Shown: positions 5,417 to 40,086 of the stretch, one piece after another
How positions within the stretch are numbered: the first letter of the stretch is position 1
Layout: each line of letters opens with the position of its first letter
Sequence record: MN850574.1
Direction: 5' to 3' (one strand)
DNA length: 64,000 nucleotides
From: Escherichia phage kaaroe
Program-made: the position numbers and the translations under genes
The notes under the pieces: model-generated
The model's input: the letters and a program-made list of their open reading frames with translations, nothing else
Told to the model about the DNA's origin: nothing
Databases searched by the model: none

Positions 5417-7240
5417 ATGAGTGAGTTTCGCATTTTATCTGATCGTGAACATGTCCTTAAGCGTGCAGGAATGTATATAGGATCAACAACTTACGAAGAA
5501 CATCAACGTTTCCTGTTCGGTAAATGGACAAAAATTTCATACGTTCCTGGACTGGTTAAAATCATTGATGAGATCATCGACAACTCTGTAGACGAGGCGA
5601 TCCGCACTAACTTTGAATTTGCCAATGTGATTAGCGTCGATATCCAAAACAATATTGTTACTGTAACAGACAATGGTCGCGGTATTCCTCAACATATGGT
5701 TACTACCCCAGAGGGTACGCAGATTCCGCAACCTGTCGCCGCATGGACACGAACAAAAGCAGGGTCTAACTTTGATGATACCAATCGATTAACGCAAGGG
5801 ATGAACGGTGTGGGGTCGTCGTTGTCAAATTTCTTTAGCGATTGGTTTACTGGTGTGACCTGTGACGGCGAAACAGAAATGACCGTTCAATGTACAAACG
5901 GTGCTGAAAATATCACATGGTCATCGAAACCATCAAAATTGAAGGGAACAAAGGTTACATTTTGCCCAGACTTCGACCACTTCGAAGGTTATATGATGGG
6001 CAACTCTGTTTTAGATATTGTTCATGATCGTCTGCAATCATTGAGCGTAATATTTCCTAAGATCACGTTTAAGTTTAATGGTAAACGTATTGTTAGTAAG
6101 TTCAAGGATTATGCTAAACTATACAATGATGATCCGTTTGTCATTGAAGATAAAAACTTTTCACTTGCCCTAGTTCCTGCGGTCGAGGGAGAAGGTTTTA
6201 AATCAGTATCCTTTGCTAATGGTCTGTTTACCAAAAACGGGGGAACACACGTTGATTATGTGACAGATGATCTTTGTGAAGAGATTGTAAAACGAATCAA
6301 GAAAGAATATAAGGTTGATGTTACTAAAGCTGCGGTTAAGTCTGGATTGACCTGTATTCTTATTGTTCGTGAATTGCCTAACCTTCGTTTTGATTCACAG
6401 ACAAAAGAACGATTGACTAATCCAACTGGTGATATCAAGCGTCATATTGATCTTGATTTTAAAAAGCTGGCTAAAGTCATTGCTAAGAAAGAAAACATTA
6501 TCATGCCTATTATTGCTGTAGTCCTGGCACGCAAAGAGGCAGCAGATAAAGCGGCAGCGACTAAGGCAGCAAAGGCAGCGAAACGGGCTAAGGTGGCAAA
6601 ACACGTTAAAGCTAACCTTATTGGAACTGACGCAGAAACTACCCTGTTTTTGACGGAAGGTGATTCCGCGATCAACTATCTGATCTCTGTACGTGATCAA
6701 GATTTACATGGAGGTTTCCCGTTGCGAGGCAAAACTCTTACAACGTGGGAACAACCGGAGGCAAAGATCGTTAAGAACGCCGAAATTTTTAACATCATGG
6801 CGATCACTGGCTTGCAATTTGGTGTTGATGCATTGGAAGTTATGCAATACAAAAATATTGCGATTATGACCGACGCTGATACTGACGGGATCGGGTCTAT
6901 TAAACCTAGTCTGATCTCTTTCTTTGCACGTTGGCCTGAATTGTTCGAAGATGGACGAATCCGGTTTATCAAAACACCTATTATCATTGCGGAACCAAAG
7001 AAAGGTGATGATGTTCGATGGTATTATGACCTAGAAGATTTCGAGAACGACCGAGATAATATCAAAGGTTACAACATTCGATATATCAAAGGTTTAGCAT
7101 CGCTCACAGAATCAGACTATCATCGCGTGATCAACGATCCTGTCATGGAGATCATCACGTTACCGGAAAACTATAAAGAGCTATTCGATTTGCTCTATAG
7201 TGAAGATGCAGATCAGCGCAAAATTTGGATGCAATCATAA
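5417..7240 (+). CDS. 39: DNA topoisomerase II large subunit, fused gp39+gp60 (GHKL ATPase + Toprim)
   Basis: N-terminal GyrB-like ATPase motifs (IDNSVDE, DNGRGIP, GLNGVG-like) and C-terminal Toprim (EGDSA, DADTDG) in one 607-aa ORF. Confidence 0.93.
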   Translation: MSEFRILSDREHVLKRAGMYIGSTTYEEHQRFLFGKWTKISYVPGLVKIIDEIIDNSVDEAIRTNFEFANVISVDIQNNIVTVTDNGRGIPQHMVTTPEGTQIPQPVAAWTRTKAGSNFDDTNRLTQGMNGVGSSLSNFFSDWFTGVTCDGETEMTVQCTNGAENITWSSKPSKLKGTKVTFCPDFDHFEGYMMGNSVLDIVHDRLQSLSVIFPKITFKFNGKRIVSKFKDYAKLYNDDPFVIEDKNFSLALVPAVEGEGFKSVSFANGLFTKNGGTHVDYVTDDLCEEIVKRIKKEYKVDVTKAAVKSGLTCILIVRELPNLRFDSQTKERLTNPTGDIKRHIDLDFKKLAKVIAKKENIIMPIIAVVLARKEAADKAAATKAAKAAKRAKVAKHVKANLIGTDAETTLFLTEGDSAINYLISVRDQDLHGGFPLRGKTLTTWEQPEAKIVKNAEIFNIMAITGLQFGVDALEVMQYKNIAIMTDADTDGIGSIKPSLISFFARWPELFEDGRIRFIKTPIIIAEPKKGDDVRWYYDLEDFENDRDNIKGYNIRYIKGLASLTESDYHRVINDPVMEIITLPENYKELFDLLYSEDADQRKIWMQS

Positions 7241-7305: not shown

Positions 7306-7605
7306 ATGAGCAAAAAGAATAACATGATGATGAGTATGGCAAAGTTCATGGAAGCAGACCTGATCAAAAATACAGTACAGCATGAACGCCAGCGAGAAGC
7401 CGCAGTGATTGCAGAACAAGGTTTTCAGGTTATCCGCAATCCACCTAAAGATACGATTAAATCGAAATACAGAGAAGATCTGAAAGACCATGAAGTACGG
7501 GAACTGGTTAATGATCTGCGTGACATTGCCATCAAATATCATGGTTATCAGTGCTTACGAGAACTGATCGCAGAGCGAGTAATGGATGCATTGAAAAAAG
7601 ATTAA
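7306..7605 (+). CDS. hypothetical protein
   Basis: ATG 7306 with SD GAGGA; preceded by promoter. Confidence 0.55.
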   Translation: MSKKNNMMMSMAKFMEADLIKNTVQHERQREAAVIAEQGFQVIRNPPKDTIKSKYREDLKDHEVRELVNDLRDIAIKYHGYQCLRELIAERVMDALKKD

Positions 7606-7612
7606 AAATCTG

Positions 7613-7641
7613 TTGACACTGGATCGGGGATATATCATAAT
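7613..7641 (+). promoter_or_regulatory. sigma70-type early promoter
   Basis: TTGACA-17-CATAAT with GGGGAT/ (A)TCCCC dyad around -10. Confidence 0.55.
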
Positions 7642-7671
7642 GTCCCCATCGAAAACAAAAGGTTGACTTAT

Positions 7672-7866
7672 ATGAAACCGTTTAAGAATGAAGAAACTCA
7701 AAAATTTTGTGAAAAAATTGCAGAAATCTACTTGACAGGGAATAAGGAAAAAGCTAATATTATGTTCAAAGAGTCAGTTTCCATGATGAAAGTAGCACGC
7801 TGGGAACTGATCGCAATGCAAGACCAAATTCGTTATCTAGTAACAAAGGAGAATCAAAATGCGTAA
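7672..7866 (+). CDS. hypothetical protein
   Basis: ATG 7672 downstream of promoter. Confidence 0.5.
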   Translation: MKPFKNEETQKFCEKIAEIYLTGNKEKANIMFKESVSMMKVARWELIAMQDQIRYLVTKENQNA

Positions 7867-8053
7867 CCATTACATCGAATTGGCAAGCCGTAAAGTTTCA
7901 GACCTGAAAGGCGTAATTGCTTACTATGAAGAAGTCCTGAAAAACGAAATTGCCGAGTGGGAACGTAAAGAATACAGCAAGTGCTTAGAGAAAAGCCGCG
8001 CTGAACTGGTTGACGCAGAAGCCCATCTGCAATGGGTAATTGAAAATGTATAA
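7859..8053 (+). CDS. hypothetical protein
   Basis: SD AAGGAGA before ATG 7859; overlaps previous stop. Confidence 0.5.
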   Translation: MRNHYIELASRKVSDLKGVIAYYEEVLKNEIAEWERKEYSKCLEKSRAELVDAEAHLQWVIENV

Positions 8054-8064
8054 GGAGTAGAAAA

Positions 8065-8322
8065 ATGAGTCGAAGTTTTGATTTTATGATCGCCAAGTGT
8101 CATAGAGAAAAGAAATCGATGGACCTATTTATGAAATGTCTGAGATATGAATATGCGCACCTTCGTAAACACAAAATTGACCCGCAAGTTTCCTACGAAA
8201 ACATCAAGAAATATGCGAAAGAAGTGATTGACAACGATTGCACCGTGACATATAATGCGTTTATTGATTTATGGGCGTGGGATGTAATCTACGCAGAGAT
8301 GGACAAAGAAGATTTTAATTAA
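8065..8322 (+). CDS. hypothetical protein
   Basis: SD AAGGAG before ATG 8065. Confidence 0.5.
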   Translation: MSRSFDFMIAKCHREKKSMDLFMKCLRYEYAHLRKHKIDPQVSYENIKKYAKEVIDNDCTVTYNAFIDLWAWDVIYAEMDKEDFN

Positions 8323-8336
8323 GTGAGGATTATATT

Positions 8337-10445
8337 ATGAAAATGCATATTGATAATGAAGAAGTATTTGGCAGTGACTTGAGCGGTGCGGTTGATTTTT
8401 CACTGAAAGCAAGTAGCAAGGCTTTTATGGTGCTTTCTAAGAACACTTATCAATATTGTGAACGTGCTTGCGTCCGTGAGTATTCGTGCAATGCTACCGA
8501 CACTCACAAAGAAGCCGGAACCTTAGATCGTCCGTTTGATATTCATTTACCGACTGCAATCGAACCGTATTTTTCTGTGCGTGATTATGGTACTGGTATT
8601 CCGTCTAAGAAAGAATTAGAACAACTGTTTACGGTTTACTTTGAATCAACAAAAGACCAGACTAATGATTATATCGGATCTTTTGGTTTAGGTGCGAAAT
8701 CTGCTTATAGCTATACCGACACCTTTACAATCGTAAACTATTACAATGGTCGCGCTTATGGCTTTACGGCATTTGTGCAAAACTCTATGCCGAAAATGGT
8801 GCAGATTTTCGACGAACCGACCTATGAAGACAACGGTCTGAAAATCACTATTCCGGTGAAAGAAAAAGACATTCAGACATGGCATCGAGAAGCGCAATTT
8901 GTACTGCGTCATTTTGGGGAACACAAACCTAATATCAATGCAATCGAAATTAATTATTTCCCTAGCTTTGATAATTATTATGTGTGTAATGGGCGTGATA
9001 ACGATTCCTATGTAGTATATGCAATCATGGGTAAGATCCAGTATCCGATCCCGTATGAATATGTTCGCGGAACATGGTTAGAAGCTGTAAACCGCCAGCA
9101 CCAGACCATTTACATTAATTTTGAGTTGGGTGATCTGGACCTTATGCCATCGCGTGAAGAAGTTCACTTGTCAATTGAGACTAAAGCGAACATCGAAAAA
9201 CGCATTGCAGAAATCAATGAAATGATGTTGGAAAAGGTTAAAGAAAAGATCGCCAACATTAAAACAGAGCGTAAACTTGCGCAATTTATGAGCGAGTATT
9301 CATCGACTCAACGCAATATTATTAGCAAGATGGGTAAGATCGGACAATGGGACGATCCGGTAGCAATCTATAATAAGTTTGTTAATGCGGGTAAAGATTC
9401 GCCTAATGACGTAGAAGGTCAGGTGTATACTCTGTATCGTACTCGTCACACAATAAGTAAATTGCGCCCTGCTTTCGTTAGCAGTCAATACAACATTACG
9501 CATTTTGTATGGATGCATAAAGAAGATATTACGTGTCTTATTGATGATACCGATAAACCGAAACTGCGTGCACTGACTCTTAACGGCATGGTCCAGGAAT
9601 ACGGCATCAATAAAAAGGTACTGGTGTTCCGTCAGAAAAACGAAAAACATATGGAGACTTTCGAGTACATCAAACAGTATTATGATGATTCTGAAATGAC
9701 CGTGATTAAAGTGTCTGAGGCCGATGATCTGCGTGCTAAAGCAGTTAAACCGGAGAAGACCGAGCGTACACAACGTGAAGCGACTCCTAAGCTGCCTAAC
9801 GTGTATATCATGGAAAAGATTGGTGACAGTTGGCATAAAACCAGCCATCACATGAAAGCGGCAGAGATTCGCGAGTTATCAGGCTTGCACATGTTCCGCG
9901 TAGGTGATGCATTCGAAAGCCGTAGTCGTAAATCGATCCATAGTGAAAATACATTACACACGGCGCTTGACTACTTCGGGGTAACAAAGTATATTATTAC
10001 TCGAAACGAGACACAAAAATATCTCGTTGACGAACAATTGGAATGTGCGCTAGAATTTGTTCGCGGTAAGCTGGCTGGTCTGGCTAAGAAGGTTAAGACC
10101 AATCATCTGGGGTATGGCGAATATCTGGGTGTGATCACTATGTTGTTTCATGACGATGAACTAGAACGCTGTGTTCCAGAATTTATTGACAGACTGTACG
10201 GTCGTCATTATAATAAAGAGGTTTCCAAGTTACTCCTTCGTACTCGTTGGATTATGGACGCAGAAACTAAAAAGATTTGTGATGAAAAATTCACGGTAGC
10301 AAACGAACGAATTAAAGCAGTTTGTGCGAAGTTTAAAGAGAATAGCCCGTTACTGTATGATATTGTAGATAACTGGTATCGTATTCTGCATAATGACAAA
10401 CGCGCACAAGACTTTATGAAACTGGTTAAGAATGTTAAATTTTAA
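8337..10445 (+). CDS. rIIA: rIIA membrane-associated protein (GHKL ATPase-like)
   Basis: 702 aa (T4 rIIA ~725); N-terminal HATPase-like motifs (DYGTGIP, GSFGLGAKSAY); followed by rIIB. Confidence 0.85.
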   Translation: MKMHIDNEEVFGSDLSGAVDFSLKASSKAFMVLSKNTYQYCERACVREYSCNATDTHKEAGTLDRPFDIHLPTAIEPYFSVRDYGTGIPSKKELEQLFTVYFESTKDQTNDYIGSFGLGAKSAYSYTDTFTIVNYYNGRAYGFTAFVQNSMPKMVQIFDEPTYEDNGLKITIPVKEKDIQTWHREAQFVLRHFGEHKPNINAIEINYFPSFDNYYVCNGRDNDSYVVYAIMGKIQYPIPYEYVRGTWLEAVNRQHQTIYINFELGDLDLMPSREEVHLSIETKANIEKRIAEINEMMLEKVKEKIANIKTERKLAQFMSEYSSTQRNIISKMGKIGQWDDPVAIYNKFVNAGKDSPNDVEGQVYTLYRTRHTISKLRPAFVSSQYNITHFVWMHKEDITCLIDDTDKPKLRALTLNGMVQEYGINKKVLVFRQKNEKHMETFEYIKQYYDDSEMTVIKVSEADDLRAKAVKPEKTERTQREATPKLPNVYIMEKIGDSWHKTSHHMKAAEIRELSGLHMFRVGDAFESRSRKSIHSENTLHTALDYFGVTKYIITRNETQKYLVDEQLECALEFVRGKLAGLAKKVKTNHLGYGEYLGVITMLFHDDELERCVPEFIDRLYGRHYNKEVSKLLLRTRWIMDAETKKICDEKFTVANERIKAVCAKFKENSPLLYDIVDNWYRILHNDKRAQDFMKLVKNVKF

Positions 10446-35637: not shown

Positions 35638-36207
35638 ATGATTCAATGTGTATTTGCGATTGGTGACACTAAAATGTCAGATGAAAACTGGGCTTTTGGT
35701 TTTAAAGGCGGTTTACCGTGGGGTCGTCCAATCAAAAAGGACATGGAAAACTTTAAAATGCGCACTATGGGAGATGTTGATCTTGCGGCGGTAGTAATGG
35801 GACGTAATACCTTTGAAAGTCTGCCTAAAGCACTGGAAGGTCGTCTTAATGTGGTTATTAGTACCGATGCCAGCAAGCCGACACCGAAAGCCAAAAACGG
35901 CGACCAGCCTAATGTGTATACTGGAATTGAATTAAAGGATCTGTTAAAAGTCCTGGAGAAAACGCAAGGTTTGGTAAGTGTTATCGGCGGACCTTCCCTG
36001 ATTGAAAAAGCGGTTGACTTTGCGGATCGTATTGTGTTAACGTATGTTCAACGTTCAGGAATCAACGATCCATTTGAATATGATGTTGGTATCTCTAAGG
36101 AAATGATTCAGGAATTATATTTTGACTTTGTAACCAAAGAAGAACATAATTACTTCCTTGATGATTACCTGATCAGCGAACAAATTTTAGAACGTAAGAA
36201 GGCGTAA
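35638..36207 (+). CDS. frd: dihydrofolate reductase
   Basis: AFGFKGGLPWG, MGRNTFESLP, VIGGPSL motifs of DHFR. Confidence 0.88.
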   Translation: MIQCVFAIGDTKMSDENWAFGFKGGLPWGRPIKKDMENFKMRTMGDVDLAAVVMGRNTFESLPKALEGRLNVVISTDASKPTPKAKNGDQPNVYTGIELKDLLKVLEKTQGLVSVIGGPSLIEKAVDFADRIVLTYVQRSGINDPFEYDVGISKEMIQELYFDFVTKEEHNYFLDDYLISEQILERKKA

Positions 36208-36208
36208 C

Positions 36209-36298
36209 ATGAAAATTCTGACAGATTATGAGTGCAAACATTGTGGTGAATCTTTGATGTTTGCTGGTAGTCGGTGTTTACACTGCGGACGGGAACAA
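36209..36298 (+). CDS. tiny zinc-ribbon peptide (29 aa)
   Basis: MKILTDYECKHCGESLMFAGSRCLHCGREQ; ATG overlaps frd stop; manually translated. Confidence 0.3.
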
Positions 36299-36300
36299 TA

Positions 36301-36570
36301 ATGAAAGTCGGTATTATTCAATTATGGACGGCTACCAGTGAAAACTACGCAGTAGCCGTAGATTATTACGGTTTACAATATCTCTATGATGAAGCGAGCG
36401 CATCATGGCTTCCTGTGCAAGAAAATAGCGATATATCAAGACCTGCTACTATATTCGACCGTGGCGTTGTCTTTATCGATATTGACGAGACAGTAGCAAA
36501 ACTGCGTAAGAAAGCAATCAATAAGAAAAAGGTGATGTGGGATGAAAGAATATTTGAAACTATTGCGTGA
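36301..36570 (+). CDS. hypothetical protein
   Basis: ATG 36301; 3' end overlaps td start. Confidence 0.4.
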   Translation: MKVGIIQLWTATSENYAVAVDYYGLQYLYDEASASWLPVQENSDISRPATIFDRGVVFIDIDETVAKLRKKAINKKKVMWDERIFETIA

Positions 36571-37774
36571 TGTTCTTGATAATGGATGGCCTCGTGAAGA
36601 CCGAACTGGGGTAGGTACGCTATCTAAATTCGGCGCAGAGATGCGAATTGATTTAAGCAAGGGTTTCCCATTACTGACCACTAAAAAGATGGCTACAGCC
36701 TCTGTAATTGGCGAATTGCTATGGTTTATGGAGGGATCACTTGACCGCCGTCGCTTACAGGAAATTACACGCGGTAAGTTTGACGAAGAAGCCTTCGACA
36801 TTTGGCGCGGCAACTGTCTTGATATGAAAGAAAAGAATCCTTTGCGATTCAATGGTTATAATGTCGGCAATATGTATGGTATGGCATGGCGACGCAAACC
36901 GATTCATCCACACGGTGAAATCAAAATTAAGCGCGTTAAGAGCAAATATGCACATACATTTAAGCACCCGTGGGTAGAAGACTTTACGCCAACCAATGAA
37001 ACAGAAGACCGTTTATGTGCTATCTGGCGTGGTATGCGTTATGAAGAGTTTGATTCTGAATATAATCAATTCTTAGTAGCAGACCACTGGAAGACTCAAT
37101 CTAATTTTGTTAATGATGCATATTGCTTGTGGGGATTCCAGGAATGGGTAGATGATGGTTATTTCGGTTATCTGCTTGATAGTGATTATCTGGGCGGGGA
37201 TATTTTAGCGCCAGATACCACGATCTTTGCTAGTATGGACGTAGACACATCGAGCACTAAAGACGATGAAGAATATGTCTATCGACCGAAGATTTGGGAA
37301 GACCAGTTACAAAACGTGATTGAACAAATTAAAAACAATCCAACGGATCGACGTATCATCATTGACTCATGGAACGTACAAGGAACACATAATGCTGTAT
37401 TAGGTGTATGTCATCCTTTCGTGCAATTCTACGTCAATGAAGGTAAACTGTCTTGTATGTGGTTTCAGCGAAGCGTAGACAGCTTTTTAGGCTTGCCCTT
37501 TAACGTCGCCAGCTATGCGCTGTTAACTCACATCATAGCGAAAATGTGTGATCTTGAGGTAGGAGAACTGATTTTCTCTGGTGGAGATACTCACATTTAC
37601 AAAAACCATTTTGATCAAGTTATGGAACAGTTAAGCCGTGTTCCGTTTGATAAACCAACGATTGAGTTGCCGGAATTTAAATCTTTAGATGAGGTATTGA
37701 CAAAGACTCCGAAAGACTTTAAAATTCACAACTATCAAAGCCATCCAGCAATCACCGCTCAAATGGCAGTATAA
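36542..37774 (+). CDS. td: thymidylate synthase with ~105-aa in-frame insertion, no intron
   Basis: DRTGVGT, LLTTKK, DRRIIIDSWN, CHPFVQFYV, QRSVDSFLGLPFNVASYALL, SGGDTHIYKNH conserved; 410 aa versus 286 in T4. Confidence 0.93.
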   Translation: MKEYLKLLRDVLDNGWPREDRTGVGTLSKFGAEMRIDLSKGFPLLTTKKMATASVIGELLWFMEGSLDRRRLQEITRGKFDEEAFDIWRGNCLDMKEKNPLRFNGYNVGNMYGMAWRRKPIHPHGEIKIKRVKSKYAHTFKHPWVEDFTPTNETEDRLCAIWRGMRYEEFDSEYNQFLVADHWKTQSNFVNDAYCLWGFQEWVDDGYFGYLLDSDYLGGDILAPDTTIFASMDVDTSSTKDDEEYVYRPKIWEDQLQNVIEQIKNNPTDRRIIIDSWNVQGTHNAVLGVCHPFVQFYVNEGKLSCMWFQRSVDSFLGLPFNVASYALLTHIIAKMCDLEVGELIFSGGDTHIYKNHFDQVMEQLSRVPFDKPTIELPEFKSLDEVLTKTPKDFKIHNYQSHPAITAQMAV

Positions 37775-37779
37775 ACAAA

Positions 37780-37795
37780 GGGGGCGAAAGCCCCC
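37780..37795 (+). other. GNRA-tetraloop hairpin GGGGGCGAAAGCCCCC downstream of td
   Basis: Perfect stem-loop without a T-run; identical to the minus-strand element at 26052-26067. Confidence 0.5.
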
Positions 37796-37842
37796 AATAT
37801 GGAGGATAAACTTGTTCCTGCTAAAATATGAAGTGAGGTAAT

Positions 37843-40086
37843 ATGATTAAAAATGTTGTTAAGTCTTCCGGTCTGACTGTTCCTTTTGAAAAAGAAAAAG
37901 TAATGAAAATTCTGGAAGCGGCAGCCGAAGGTCATAACGTTGATCCATATGAATTGTTTGATATGGTTGAACCACTTCTGACAGAAGGTATGTCTACCAA
38001 CGATATCCAGAAAGTATTGATTAAGGTCGCAGCAGATAACATTACTGTAGAAACACCCGATTATCAATATGTAGCAAGTAACCTTGCAATGTTCGCGCTT
38101 CGCAAATCAGTATACGGTCAATTCCAACCGATTGATTTTTACAGCCATATTGAGCGTAATATTGCAACCGGAAAATATGATCGCGAAATTCTGCAAAAGT
38201 ATTCCCGTGAAGAAGTGGAATATCTGGAGAAATTCATCGACCATAAACTTGATTTTAAAATGACCTATGCTGGTGCGATGCAGTTAAAAGAGAAATATCT
38301 TGTTCAAGATCGCAGCACTAAGAAAATCATCGAAACACCGCAATTTGCGTATATGCTGATCGGTATGTGCTTGCATCAAGAAGAGACAGAAAATCGACTT
38401 GAACATGTGATTGATTTTTATAATGCGGTTGCGAATAAGCAAATCTCTCTGCCTACTCCGATTATGGCAGGTGTGCGTACCCCAACACGCCAATTTAGTT
38501 CGTGTGTGGTGATTGAAAGTGATGACTCATTGCAGGGTATTAATGAAACCGCAAATGCAATCATCAAGTATATTAGCAAGCGTGCTGGTATCGGTATCAA
38601 CGCTGGCATGATTCGCGCGGAAGGATCTAAGATCGGGCATGGTGAAGTTCGTCATACTGGAGTTATCCCATTCTGGAAACATTTTCAGACTGCCGTTAAG
38701 TCATGCTCACAAGGCGGTATTCGTGGCGGGGCAGCGACACTCTATTACCCAATGTGGCATTTAGAGTTTGAAAGTCTGATTGTGTTAAAGAACAATAAGG
38801 GCGTGGAAGATAACCGCATTCGCCATCTTGACTACGGCGTACAGATTAATAACCTGATGGTAGAGCGATTCCTTAAACGGGATTACATTACTCTGTTTAG
38901 TCCAGATGTTGCGGGTGGCTTGTTGTGGGATCTGTACTTCCGAGACGAGGAAGGTTTCCGCCAACTTTACGAAAAACTGGAAAAAGATCCGAGTGTTCGT
39001 AAAACTCGTGTTAAAGCCGAAGACCTGTTTTTAGCGGTGGCAATTGAACGTTTTAACACTGGTCGAATCTATCCAACGTTCACAGACAACATGAACAATC
39101 ACGGGGCGTTTATTCGTAATGTAGCACCGATTAAACAATCTAACCTGTGTTGTGAAATTGCTCTGCCTACTAAACCGATGGGTCGTGATGATTCAGAGAT
39201 CAGCCTATGTACTTTGGCAGCATATGTTTTAGGAAACTTTGATATCGAAAATATGGAAGAAGTAGAACGCATTGCTATGGTTATGGTGCGTGCACTTGAC
39301 AACCTGTTAGATTATCAGGATTATCCTGTAGAGCAAGCTATGACAGCCAAAAAACGTCGCTCTCTGGGTGTTGGGGTGACTAACTTTGCATCGTATCTCG
39401 CGGATAATTTCTTCACATATGAAGACGCTAACGAGTTTACGCATAAAACGTTTGAACGCTTGCAATATGCTCTGATTAAGGCTAGTGTGCAACTGGCTAA
39501 AGAGAAGGGTGCTTGCGAACTGATGCACGAAACCCGCTATGGTCGCGGTGAACTGCCTATCGACTGGTACAAAAAGACAGTAGATGAACTGGTTGATCCG
39601 GTGTATGAGATGGATTGGGAAGAACTGCGCGAAGACCTGAAAAAATATGGCATTCGTAATAGTACGCTTTCGGCTCTGATGCCTTGTGAGTCGTCTTCTC
39701 AGGTATCTAACAGCACAAACGGTATTGAACCACCTCGCGGGATTGTATCGGTTAAAGGATCGAAAGAAGGGCAATTTAATCAGGTTATTCCGAACGTAGA
39801 GAATAATGCTGATGTTATTGACCTGCTTTGGACACTGATCAAGAAAGGTAACAAGCCCTATCTGACACTGGCAGCGATCATGCAGAAGTTTGTAGATCAG
39901 GCGATTAGTTCCAATACATCCTATGATCCAAGCACTTATAAGACTGGTAAAGTCGATATTGCTGATGTGTTAGATGATATGTTGTTCGCTCAACATTACG
40001 GTCTGAAAACCCTGTATTATGCGAACGTTCGCGACGGTGCAGATGGTACGGAAGACGCTAGCGAGTGCTCATCTTGCAAGCTGTAA
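37843..40086 (+). CDS. nrdA: ribonucleotide reductase large subunit (class Ia NrdA)
   Basis: ATP-cone N-terminus, SSCVVIE-like, ESSSQVSNSTNGIEP and other NrdA motifs; 747 aa. Confidence 0.95.
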   Translation: MIKNVVKSSGLTVPFEKEKVMKILEAAAEGHNVDPYELFDMVEPLLTEGMSTNDIQKVLIKVAADNITVETPDYQYVASNLAMFALRKSVYGQFQPIDFYSHIERNIATGKYDREILQKYSREEVEYLEKFIDHKLDFKMTYAGAMQLKEKYLVQDRSTKKIIETPQFAYMLIGMCLHQEETENRLEHVIDFYNAVANKQISLPTPIMAGVRTPTRQFSSCVVIESDDSLQGINETANAIIKYISKRAGIGINAGMIRAEGSKIGHGEVRHTGVIPFWKHFQTAVKSCSQGGIRGGAATLYYPMWHLEFESLIVLKNNKGVEDNRIRHLDYGVQINNLMVERFLKRDYITLFSPDVAGGLLWDLYFRDEEGFRQLYEKLEKDPSVRKTRVKAEDLFLAVAIERFNTGRIYPTFTDNMNNHGAFIRNVAPIKQSNLCCEIALPTKPMGRDDSEISLCTLAAYVLGNFDIENMEEVERIAMVMVRALDNLLDYQDYPVEQAMTAKKRRSLGVGVTNFASYLADNFFTYEDANEFTHKTFERLQYALIKASVQLAKEKGACELMHETRYGRGELPIDWYKKTVDELVDPVYEMDWEELREDLKKYGIRNSTLSALMPCESSSQVSNSTNGIEPPRGIVSVKGSKEGQFNQVIPNVENNADVIDLLWTLIKKGNKPYLTLAAIMQKFVDQAISSNTSYDPSTYKTGKVDIADVLDDMLFAQHYGLKTLYYANVRDGADGTEDASECSSCKL

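What the first reader, a model, noticed from the sequence alone, without database searches (positions are those of the whole stretch)
36542..37774. Thymidylate synthase without the group I intron but with a ~105-residue in-frame insertion
The ORF is continuous at 410 aa, whereas T4 td is 286 aa and split by an intron encoding I-TevI. Conserved TS blocks flank an insertion placed after the GMAWRRKP segment (equivalent to the Q-W-R loop) and before DRRIIIDSWN. This is the loop where some bacterial TS enzymes carry a small-domain insert. The inserted segment is rich in W/Y/D/E and has no recognised similarity.
Basis: partly seen in the sequence, partly recalled or inferred. Interest (0 to 1): 0.55.

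Follow-up and report, generated by a model that had tools for sequence, protein, structure and literature searches.

The report
Endonuclease relic inside phage thymidylate synthase
The extra 132 residues in this RB49-like phage's thymidylate synthase are the stripped-down remnant of a selfish homing-endonuclease-type gene that inserted in frame into a surface loop, is never spliced out, and is still conserved by selection; intact and apparently mobile copies sit at the same spot in other phages.

Summary
The ORF is real: 36542-37774, 410 aa, a ThyA-type thymidylate synthase (TS) with all catalytic residues and no intron. The window is a Krischvirus (RB49-like) genome.

All the extra length is one block, residues 121-252 (132 aa, not ~105). 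It lies after YGMAWRRKP and before the DQLQNV helix. This is not the L. casei small-domain site, which lies before the YGxQWR motif.

The insert does have relatives. At the same loop, other phage TSs carry 190-290-aa inserts made of three modules (A, B, C). These are collinear with a family of at least 1,875 free-standing ~220-aa phage proteins annotated as HNH endonucleases; their module C matches I-HmuI's DNA-binding domain.

In Bacillus phage 015DV002 the 810-bp element is absent from sister phages with ~92-93% identical TS, and a ~120-bp co-conversion tract flanks it. That is a homing footprint. No intein or intron features are found.

The Krischvirus copy keeps only module B. It has lost the family's invariant Cys, Lys and Asn residues and is acidic (net -12). 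Yet it folds confidently (pLDDT about 92), is present in all 58 relatives found, and is as constrained as the TS core (dN/dS 0.12 against 0.09).

Verdict: a fixed, inactivated relic of a non-splicing, in-frame homing-type element, possibly exapted. Whether module B is a true HNH domain remains unproven.

The parts
36530..36535 (+). Shine-Dalgarno-like AGGTGA, 6 nt upstream of the td ATG
   Evidence: Read directly from the sequence.
36542..37774 (+). td gene: 410-aa ThyA-type thymidylate synthase carrying the insert (stop codon 37772-37774)
   Evidence: PF00303, E=1.3e-84; 58 Krischvirus records are 90-99.9% identical over at least 80% of the gene.
36542..36901 (+). N-terminal TS core, residues 1-120, ending in YGMAWRRKP (= E. 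coli Y94-P102)
   Evidence: Alignments A1 and A2. R21, E58, W88, Y112, W116 and R117 are invariant.
36902..37297 (+). In-frame insert, residues 121-252 (132 aa): relic of a homing-endonuclease-type element
   Evidence: Boundaries come from A1 and from the 015DV002/015DV004 junctions. Homology: tblastn of the UE-S1 insert, E=2e-16; hhalign probability 88%, E=3e-6. The fold is confident.
36893..36931 (+). Ascending strand of the two-stranded beta-ribbon stalk (residues 118-130, RKPIHPHGEIKIK)
   Evidence: AF2 secondary structure E118-130. The 'P.xPHG..xIxRK' motif is shared by the inserts of most TS lineages in A2, but not by P0034/P0035 or 015DV002.
36989..37237 (+). Module B core (residues ~150-232). 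It has helices 153-169, 181-193 and 199-204 and a beta-hairpin at 210-213/228-231, and contains the degenerate LLDSDY motif (family consensus: LDKDY)
   Evidence: Net charge -12, pI 4.1. The family-invariant C, K, C and N are replaced, while W162, W183, F189 and F229 are kept.
37055..37066 (+). Four codons (S172-N175) that are deleted in frame in some close relatives (L013, L014/P0001); they lie in the shrunken 'RCY...Y' loop
37232..37273 (+). Acidic loop SMDVDTSSTKDDEE (residues 231-244), at the place where module C sits in long forms
37274..37303 (+). Descending strand of the stalk (residues 245-254, YVYRPKIWED), returning to the TS core
   Evidence: AF2 E245-254. 'V.RPKI..DQL' is shared by the inserts of most TS lineages in A2.
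37298..37771 (+). C-terminal TS core, residues 253-410, containing R270/R271, the catalytic C290 (37409-37411), R310, S311, D313, N321, H351 and Y353
   Evidence: (the offset of 144 maps these to E. coli R126/R127, C146, R166, S167, D169, N177, H207, Y209).
37490..37495 (+). Codons G317|L318: the position equivalent to the T4 td group I intron insertion site, uninterrupted here
   Evidence: T4 exon ends ...DVFLG | LPFN...; query DSFLG-LPFN.

Best explanation
The gene encodes a working ThyA-type thymidylate synthase. The surface loop after the YGxQWR motif (E. coli T103-I109) is occupied by the remains of a selfish element.

An I-HmuI-like, endonuclease-annotated phage gene has repeatedly inserted in frame into this loop of phage td genes. 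It has three modules: A (beta-rich), B (a helical core plus beta-hairpin with invariant Cys, D-K-D and Asn residues) and C (an I-HmuI-type DNA-binding domain). The element has no intron or intein, so it is translated as part of TS. It is tolerated because a two-stranded beta-ribbon holds it away from the enzyme body.

In the Krischvirus lineage the element is old and fixed. It has been whittled down to module B, which has lost the family's invariant polar residues and has become strongly acidic. It therefore almost certainly no longer binds or cuts DNA. Purifying selection still maintains its fold.

Status of each step:
- Shown: the single insertion, the homology, the modular reduction, the lack of splicing signatures, the confident fold, the purifying selection, and the homing footprint of the intact form in Bacillus phages.
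- Inferred: that TS is active with the insert in place; that the ancestral element moved by endonuclease-driven homing; and why the relic is retained (structural entrenchment and/or a new role).
For: TS identity and a single insert:
-.

Relatives at the same loop:
- Exhaustive phmmer with the insert alone finds only TSs with larger inserts at the same loop (E down to 1e-10), apart from one spurious repeat protein.
- Those larger inserts hit phrog_2081, 'HNH endonuclease', at E=2e-35.
- A2 shows the A/B/C modules and a 250 -> 199 -> 150 -> 141 aa reduction series with invariant W162, W183, F189, D192 and F229.

Link to free-standing proteins:
- Free-standing ~220-aa proteins have the same A+B+C layout, and the family has at least 1,875 members.
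- Module C matches I-HmuI: PDB profile hit to 1u3e at E=0.005; hhalign probability 92%, E=6e-7.
- The short-insert profile matches the free-standing family profile: hhalign probability 88%, E=3e-6.
- Foldseek of the insert model hits insert-bearing TSs, the free-standing KIL3b protein (E=1.8e-4), then proteins named HNH or homing endonuclease.

Mobility of the intact form:
- In 015DV002 against 015DV004 there is a clean 810-bp insertion in td genes that are 97-100% identical away from the junction, with a 62-65% identity tract of about 120 bp just 3' of the insertion.
- The element occurs in several unrelated TS backgrounds.

No splicing:
- No Hint or intein Pfam hit.
- No HN/Cys-type junctions.
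- No Rfam intron.
- No hidden out-of-frame ORF.

State of the relic:
- Charge -12 against roughly neutral to basic in most other forms, and LDKDY changed to LDSDY.
- pLDDT 92.4 for the full protein and 91.5 for the insert alone.
- Present in 58 of 58 Krischvirus records.
- dN/dS 0.116 for module B against 0.088 for the C-terminal TS core within the same diverged tract.
Against: - No nuclease activity or homing has been demonstrated for any member. The Bacillus footprint could reflect recombination driven by another nuclease.
- Direct similarity of the Krischvirus insert to PHROG 2081 is weak (E=0.1); the link goes through intermediates.
- Purifying selection as strong as on the TS core is more than a pure 'junk relic' view predicts.
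Confidence: 0.75

Rival explanations
1. Exapted domain. This shares the same origin as the best explanation and is not exclusive of it. In this view the relic has acquired a new job and is retained for that reason. Possible jobs are a protein-protein docking surface in the T4-type dNTP-synthesis complex, an acidic DNA-mimic or decoy against related endonucleases or host factors, or a modulator of TS activity.
For: - dN/dS for module B is about 0.12, as low as for the catalytic half of TS at dS about 0.9-1.4.
- Charge shifts directionally to acidic across the short-insert lineage, from -3 to -12.
- The insert is fixed in all 58 Krischvirus genomes and in diverged relatives in the same gp32-frd-td-nrdA context.
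- The fold is rigid and confidently predicted, with pTM 0.90 for the whole protein.
Against: - The positions conserved across the family are mostly aromatic or hydrophobic core residues, as expected if only foldability is selected.
- A domain inserted in an essential enzyme is under selection not to misfold, whether or not it has a function.
- The 4-codon in-frame deletion polymorphism suggests that erosion continues.
- No partner or activity is known.
Confidence: 0.3
2. The Krischvirus insert is still an active homing endonuclease that mobilises itself between td alleles.
For: It is homologous to a family annotated as HNH endonucleases. A mosaic breakpoint lies inside the insert, at about 37000, between the query and L014.
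Against: - Modules A and C, which include the only part with a demonstrated link to a DNA-binding domain, are absent.
- The family-invariant R, C, K, Y, C and N residues are replaced.
- Net charge is -12.
- There is no presence/absence polymorphism among 58 genomes.
- The nearest insert-less TS core is only 49-56% identical.
Confidence: 0.04
3. This is a lineage-specific TS elaboration analogous to the L. casei small domain or the eukaryotic inserts, with no mobile-element ancestry (essentially the first reader's view).
For: This loop varies naturally in length among TSs. Pfam and NCBIfam see nothing in the insert.
Against: - The site is different from the L. casei insert.
- Homology to free-standing non-TS phage proteins is significant.
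- Long forms reproduce a whole free-standing ORF.
- The 015DV002 case shows an insertion polymorphism with a conversion tract.
Confidence: 0.03
4. The insert is an intein or an in-frame intron that is removed after transcription or translation.
For: It is an in-frame insertion in a conserved nucleotide-metabolism gene that is a classic intron and intein host. Many long forms begin with Cys ('PC.PHG').
Against: - Neither the short nor the long forms hit a Hint or intein Pfam domain.
- The C-terminal junction is ...RPKIWE|DQL, with no His-Asn followed by Cys/Ser/Thr.
- Rfam finds no intron.
- AF2 places the insert as an integral domain on a beta-ribbon continuous with the TS core.
Confidence: 0.01

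Closest known systems
I-HmuI-type HNH homing endonucleases of phages (PDB 1u3e); PHROG families 2081, 953 and 374, labelled 'HNH endonuclease'
   Same: - The long TS inserts and the free-standing ~220-aa proteins share I-HmuI's C-terminal DNA-binding domain.
- They have a three-part layout like that of I-HmuI (I-HmuI's own domain layout is recalled from knowledge, not tested here).
- The free-standing copies examined lie among phage structural genes (between terminase and portal; on the opposite strand between tail genes) or next to a tRNA cluster, placements typical of homing endonuclease genes.
- The Krischvirus insert is homologous to the family's central module B.
   Different: - Module B does not detectably align to the I-HmuI HNH core and has D-K-D instead of D-H.
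- The Krischvirus copy lacks modules A and C and the invariant polar residues.
- It lies inside an enzyme rather than being free-standing or intron-encoded.
ShiLan domain: a non-splicing insertion in a mycobacteriophage DNA methylase with a hidden HNH (Arsenault, Gosselin & Gogarten 2025, PMC11855218)
   Same: Both are insertions in a phage enzyme gene that keep the host reading frame open and show no intein or intron features. Both are predicted to loop out of the host protein and to have a homing-like distribution.
   Different: In ShiLan the HNH is encoded out of frame, and the in-frame product is only a hairpin-like loop. In the TS elements the endonuclease-like protein itself is in frame and is translated as a folded domain of the host enzyme. 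There is no alternative-frame ORF here. The host gene is TS, which is central to dTMP supply.
Inteins carrying homing endonucleases, and the T4 td group I intron with I-TevI
   Same: All are selfish endonuclease-type elements lodged in conserved nucleotide-metabolism genes, td included. They spread with co-conversion of flanking sequence (for the TS element; T4 td intron).
   Different: There is no splicing apparatus at the RNA or protein level. The insertion site (after YGxQWR) differs from the T4 intron site (DVFLG|LPFN). The host protein keeps the element permanently.
Genes-in-pieces created by free-standing homing endonuclease genes (Aeromonas phage Aeh1 nrdA split by mobE; from my own knowledge)
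   Same: A homing endonuclease gene invades a nucleotide-metabolism gene without an intron or intein. A relative of this phage (L017) shows exactly such a split nrdA.
   Different: There the host gene is broken into two polypeptides. Here the element is fused in frame and the host protein remains one chain.
L. casei-type TS small domain and other TS loop inserts
   Same: Both are extra residues in the variable, surface-exposed part of the TS fold.
   Different: The loop is different: the L. casei insert lies before YGxQWR. The sizes differ (50 against 132 aa). There is no sequence relationship.

Membership tests
ThyA-type thymidylate synthase (Pfam PF00303) | Whole-protein match above the curated threshold | tested here: met
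   PF00303, 284 bits against a cutoff of 24.3, covering residues 2-410. TIGR03284, 283.5 bits against a cutoff of 108.
ThyA-type thymidylate synthase (Pfam PF00303) | Catalytic Cys and the dUMP/folate-site residues (E. coli R21, E58, R126/R127, C146, R166, S167, D169, N177, H207, Y209) | tested here: met
   R21, E58, R270/R271, C290, R310, S311, D313, N321, H351 and Y353 are aligned and conserved.
ThyA-type thymidylate synthase (Pfam PF00303) | Enzymatic activity and homodimer formation with the insert in place | not testable with these tools
   Inferred only, from residue conservation, dN/dS of 0.09 on the core and a confident TS-like model.
L. casei-type TS small-domain insert | Insertion located between the helix ending near E. 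coli residue 89 and the YGxQWR motif | tested here: not met
   In A1 the L. casei extra residues fall before YGSQWR, while the query's fall after YGMAWRRKP.
Intein | Hint splicing domain, N-terminal Cys/Ser, and C-terminal His-Asn followed by Cys/Ser/Thr | tested here: not met
   No Hint or intein Pfam hit in the query or in nine long forms. The junctions are ...RRKP|IHPHG and ...PKIW|EDQL.
Group I intron (as in T4 td) | Structured intron RNA interrupting the ORF | tested here: not met
   The ORF is continuous. There is no Rfam match at E<=1. The T4 intron site is a different place in the gene.
I-HmuI-like 'HNH endonuclease' phage family (phrog_2081 and free-standing A+B+C proteins) | Sequence and profile homology to the family core (module B) | tested here: met
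   phmmer to long TS inserts down to E=1.3e-10. tblastn of the UE-S1 insert, E=2e-16. hhalign of A6 against A5, probability 88%, E=3e-6. Foldseek to the free-standing KIL3b protein, E=1.8e-4. The direct PHROG hit is only E=0.1.
I-HmuI-like 'HNH endonuclease' phage family (phrog_2081 and free-standing A+B+C proteins) | N-terminal beta-rich module A and C-terminal I-HmuI NUMOD-like DNA-binding module C | tested here: not met
   Both are absent from the Krischvirus insert and present in long forms and free-standing proteins.
I-HmuI-like 'HNH endonuclease' phage family (phrog_2081 and free-standing A+B+C proteins) | Family-invariant polar residues of module B (R90, C91, D134-K135-D136, Y145, C150, N158 in A5 numbering) | tested here: not met
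   Only the two Asp residues are kept. R, C, K, Y and C are replaced and the Asn region is missing.
I-HmuI-like 'HNH endonuclease' phage family (phrog_2081 and free-standing A+B+C proteins) | Module B is a genuine HNH / beta-beta-alpha-metal nuclease fold | tested here: inconclusive
Mobile homing element | Presence/absence polymorphism among close relatives, with co-conversion of flanking sequence | tested here: not met
   Not met for the Krischvirus copy, which is present in 58 of 58 records and whose nearest insert-less core is 49-56% identical. Met for the intact form in Bacillus phage 015DV002 against 015DV004.
Mobile homing element | Site-specific endonuclease activity on the empty allele | not testable with these tools
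   Requires biochemistry or phage crosses.
ShiLan-type insertion (out-of-frame hidden HNH) | An endonuclease ORF in an alternative frame of the insertion | tested here: not met
   No alternative-frame ORF longer than 70 aa overlaps 36880-37310, and none spans the insert.

The most novel reading that the evidence does not exclude
Phage td genes host a previously undescribed kind of homing element: an endonuclease-type gene that invades a permissive enzyme loop directly in frame, needs no intron or intein, and is expressed as a domain of the obligately dimeric host enzyme. The Krischvirus copy is a domesticated descendant. Its acidic, nuclease-dead module has been kept for a new function, for example immunity or decoy against related endonucleases, or docking within the dNTP-synthesis machinery.
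Probability: 0.25. Interest if true: 0.85.

Novelty: new variant of a known kind. Interest (0 to 1): 0.62.

Why it matters
Homing endonuclease genes are thought to need a splicing vehicle (an intron or intein) or an intergenic position to avoid killing their host gene. These TS inserts show a third option: direct in-frame fusion into a tolerant surface loop.

The data cover the whole sequence of states:
- an intact element with a homing-type footprint in Bacillus phages;
- intact copies in jumbo and T4-like phages;
- trimmed intermediates;
- the fixed, inactivated but selectively maintained relic in RB49-like phages.

This provides a natural series for studying how selfish DNA becomes a permanent protein domain. 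It also offers a well-characterised enzyme scaffold for domain-insertion engineering. On the practical side it corrects annotations: some of these TS genes are labelled 'HNH endonuclease' or 'hypothetical protein'.

Tried and rejected
Searches that led nowhere:
- The word-indexed protein search with the insert alone found nothing. The exhaustive HMMER search was needed.
- Pfam and NCBIfam on the insert and on free-standing homologues returned no family apart from sub-threshold I-HmuI_NUMOD-like hits for module C.
- The AFDB50 fold library was unavailable.
- The RB49 genome paper is not held. Four literature searches found no description of this TS insert.

Hypotheses tested and rejected:
- Intein.
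- Intron.
- A hidden out-of-frame ORF as in ShiLan.
- Recent acquisition: GC content in the insert is the same as in the flanks.
- Equivalence to the L. casei small domain.
- Other copies of the module in the window: none.

Inconclusive or revised:
- A second homing footprint was sought in the P0034/P0066 pair. The site is the same, but the genes are too diverged overall to resolve a conversion tract.
- The first whole-gene dN/dS was confounded by a recombination mosaic and was redone by segment.
- P0011 is a low-complexity repeat protein and was treated as spurious.
Full report
**What is there**

The window is a Krischvirus (RB49-like, T4-type) phage genome. The 1,233-bp stretch is 90-99.9% identical to 58 phage records, and all of them cover at least 80% of it. 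An uninterrupted ORF at 36542-37774 (+) encodes 410 aa, with AGGTGA 6 nt upstream of the ATG. It lies between frd (35638-36207) and nrdA (37843-40086), the T4 order.

The protein is a ThyA-type thymidylate synthase (TS): PF00303, E=1.3e-84. Solved TSs match at about E=1e-68 in two blocks, query 1-82 and 254-410. Residues equivalent to E. coli R21, E58, R126/R127, C146, R166, S167, D169, N177, H207 and Y209 are all present.

**Checking the observation**

I aligned the protein with these references (A1):
- E. coli ThyA;
- T4 Td, rebuilt from its two exons;
- three other phage TSs;

All the extra length is one block after YGMAWRRKP. It replaces the short loop that is T103-I109 in E. coli and 'GV' in T4. 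The junctions seen in a Bacillus phage pair put the block at residues 121-252. That is 132 aa: +126 relative to E. coli and +131 relative to T4, not about 105.

The block ends before the conserved DQLQNV helix, not directly before DRRIII. The L. casei small domain lies upstream of YGxQWR, so it is in a different loop. The T4 intron site (DVFLG|LPFN) corresponds to G317|L318 here and is uninterrupted. Rfam finds no intron, and GC content in the insert equals that of the flanks.

**The insert has relatives**

Pfam sees nothing in the insert. An exhaustive phmmer search of 1.8 billion representative proteins with the insert alone returned 12 proteins:
- one close TS;
- ten TSs, or contig-truncated TS fragments, with larger inserts at the same loop (the eight full-length ones are 417-525 aa);
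- one spurious repeat protein.

Those larger inserts match PHROG 'HNH endonuclease' families strongly: phrog_2081 at E=2e-35, covering profile positions 5-226 of 433.

A search with the full-length protein gave a graded series. Aligned as A2, it resolves the insert into these parts:
- a beta-ribbon 'stalk' (P.xPHG..xIxRK ... V.RPKI..DQL);
- module A, beta-rich (...F..TGSY...KD.F.PSV.GVGY.G);
- module B (LYxxWxxM..RCY...Y..VC.RW.NF.NF..D...WGFQE.VD...LDKDY...YSP.TC.F...N);
- module C (...Y.Y.G..F.S...L....G.SRKA.LP).

Measured from W116 to L256 of the query, the segment shrinks from about 250 aa (A+B+C) to 199, to about 150, to 141 aa. The Krischvirus protein keeps only the stalk and a diverged module B.

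**Free-standing counterparts**

The same A+B+C layout makes up whole free-standing phage proteins of about 180-230 aa:
- KIL1 gp152 lies between the terminase and portal genes.
- Vibrio phage Bennett gp140 lies next to a tRNA cluster.
- The Vibrio phage 1.242.O protein lies on the opposite strand between tail genes.

The family has at least 1,875 members. They carry no Pfam domain except an occasional C-terminal I-HmuI_NUMOD-like hit.

A 40-sequence profile of this family hits only I-HmuI (PDB 1u3e) among solved structures, through module C (E=0.005).

The short Krischvirus-type insert profile aligns to the free-standing family profile at probability 88%, E=3e-6, over 91 columns. The UE-S1 long insert matches window 36914-37309 at E=2e-16.

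**Structure**

AlphaFold2 with A2 gives a confident full-length model: pLDDT 92.4, pTM 0.90. Strands 118-130 and 245-254 form a two-stranded ribbon. This ribbon carries a compact domain with helices 153-169, 181-193 and 199-204 and a hairpin at 210-213/228-231. The insert alone also folds confidently: pLDDT 91.5, pTM 0.84.

Foldseek against viral predicted structures finds other insert-bearing TSs first (E=5e-6 and 2e-5). Next comes the free-standing KIL3b protein (E=1.8e-4), followed by proteins named HNH or homing endonuclease.

**Is the element mobile?**

Bacillus phage 015DV002 has a 564-aa TS with a full A+B+C insert. Its sister phages 015DV004, 000TH008 and 000TH009 have TSs that are about 92-93% identical in protein sequence and lack the insert.

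At the DNA level the 015DV002 and 015DV004 genes are 97-100% identical on both sides away from the junction. They differ by a clean 810-bp (270-codon) insertion and by a ~120-bp tract immediately 3' of it that is only 62-65% identical. Such a tract is the classic co-conversion footprint of homing from a divergent donor.

TS-core comparisons show the element in several unrelated backgrounds:
- the 015DV002 core is 93% identical to insert-less 015DV004;
- P0034 is 92% identical to insert-less P0066;
- P0018 and P0019 are about 68% identical to an insert-less Slopekvirus TS;
- P0033 is 66% identical to insert-less P0079.

This implies repeated invasion of the same loop. A long form (P0019) also sits in a T4-type frd-td-nrdA-nrdB locus.

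None of these inserts shows a Hint or intein domain, splice-type junction residues or an intron RNA. TS catalytic residues stay invariant in all 26 aligned hosts. The element therefore appears to be carried permanently within the enzyme.

**State of the Krischvirus copy**

- It lacks modules A and C.
- Of the residues invariant in module B of the free-standing family, it keeps the aromatic core (W162, W183, F189, F229) and two Asp residues.
- It has lost R90, C91, K135 (LDKDY is LLDSDY here), Y145, C150 and N158. Nearly invariant H113 is also replaced.
- Module B has net charge -12 (pI 4.1). It ranges from -6 to +6 (pI about 5-9, mostly 7-9) in long and free-standing forms. The short-insert lineage shows a graded shift from -3 to -12. 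DNA binding or cleavage is therefore very unlikely.
- Some close relatives carry a 4-codon in-frame deletion in the shrunken 'RCY' loop.

Even so, the domain is not drifting. Diverged relatives with short inserts (52-87% identity) all lie in the same gp59/gp32-frd-td-nrdA context. The nearest insert-less TS core is only 49-56% identical.

Query and L014 form a recombination mosaic: 92-98% nt identity up to about 37000, 70-88% from 37000 to 37900, and high again in nrdA. I therefore computed Nei-Gojobori dN/dS by segment:

| Segment | dS | dN/dS |
|---|---|---|
| Module B plus 3' stalk (residues 153-253) | 0.90 | 0.116 |
| C-terminal TS core (residues 254-410) | 1.37 | 0.088 |

The relic is thus about as constrained as the catalytic half of the enzyme.

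**Interpretation**

The most likely reading is a fixed, inactivated relic of a non-splicing, in-frame homing-type element.

- Shown: the homology, the modular reduction, the absence of splicing features, the confident fold, the purifying selection, and the homing footprint of the intact form.
- Inferred: that Td is active with the insert; that the ancestral element moved through its own nuclease; and why the relic persists.

There are two non-exclusive reasons for persistence. One is entrenchment: the stalk is part of the fold, and only a precise deletion would be viable. The other is exaptation, suggested by the low dN/dS and the directional shift to an acidic surface. I could not inspect model coordinates, so the geometry relative to the active site and dimer interface is not established.

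**Comparison with what is known**

- The closest published analogue I found is the ShiLan domain, a non-splicing insertion in a mycobacteriophage methylase (PMC11855218). There the HNH is encoded out of frame, whereas here the endonuclease-like protein is itself in frame. No alternative-frame ORF exists here.
- Inteins and the T4 td intron share the selfish logic but have a splicing apparatus.
- 'Genes in pieces' is the non-fused alternative. It is visible in a relative, L017, where nrdA is split by a canonical HNH gene sharing module C.
- I found no paper describing this TS insert. The RB49 genome paper was not available.

**Verdict**

The feature is a new variant of a known kind of system (homing-endonuclease elements). 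I rate its interest as moderately high. The reasons are the unusual splicing-free, in-frame arrangement and the complete series from an apparently mobile element to a conserved protein domain.

Noticed in passing
L017:4689-7876 (metagenomic relative with a short td insert): nrdA is split into two ORFs (476 and 324 aa) by a 237-aa gene at 6196-6909. That gene has a canonical HNH motif (HEKHHVIPRCMGGTNDKSNIVVLTPEEHYLAH) plus the same I-HmuI-type module C (hhalign probability 97.6%). This is a 'genes in pieces' arrangement like Aeh1 nrdA/mobE.
   Followed up: partly
window ~37000-37900, compared with L014: There is a recombination mosaic. The query and L014 are 92-98% identical up to about 37000 (inside the insert) and 70-88% identical through module B, the td 3' half and the td-nrdA spacer. 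They are 89-100% identical again in nrdA. The N-terminal 118 TS residues show no amino-acid differences, against 28 in the C-terminal core.
   Followed up: partly
L020:1501-2683 (Bacillus phage KKP_4048; also KKP_4047, KKP_4050 and TimeGriffin): td is annotated as two CDSs (1501-2067 and 2360-2683) separated by about 290 bp. This is a different interruption from the A+B+C insert. Rfam finds no intron there at E<=0.1.
   Followed up: partly
L006:2249-3682 (Vibrio phage D69); Klebsiella phage phiKp_21 (P0023): Insert-bearing TS genes are mis-annotated. The 477-aa D69 protein is labelled 'HNH endonuclease', and the 517-aa phiKp_21 protein is labelled 'hypothetical protein'.
   Followed up: yes
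window 36274-36570 (+): A 98-aa GTG-start ORF lies between frd and td and overlaps the td start by 29 nt. An 89-aa gene is called at the equivalent place in L014 and L015 (3760-4029), and 'hypothetical protein' features overlap td in many Krischvirus records. No function was examined.
   Followed up: no
L015 compared with L014 (two contigs encoding the identical P0001 Td): The neighbourhoods differ by mobile-looking genes. L015 has an HNH_3-domain gene upstream of gp32 where L014 has gp59, and it has an extra DNA methylase gene (7587-8426) downstream of nrdA.
   Followed up: no
P0029 (613 aa, JGI metagenome): This long-insert TS has about 95 additional N-terminal residues before the TS start. 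This is either a mis-called start or a further fused segment.
   Followed up: no
L007:128-4522 (Pseudomonas phage KIL1): The free-standing 178-aa module gene lies between the terminase large subunit and portal genes. Both of those are annotated as joined (two-piece) CDSs, which suggests further intervening elements in this structural region. tblastn found 4-6 copies of the module per KIL-type genome.
   Followed up: no
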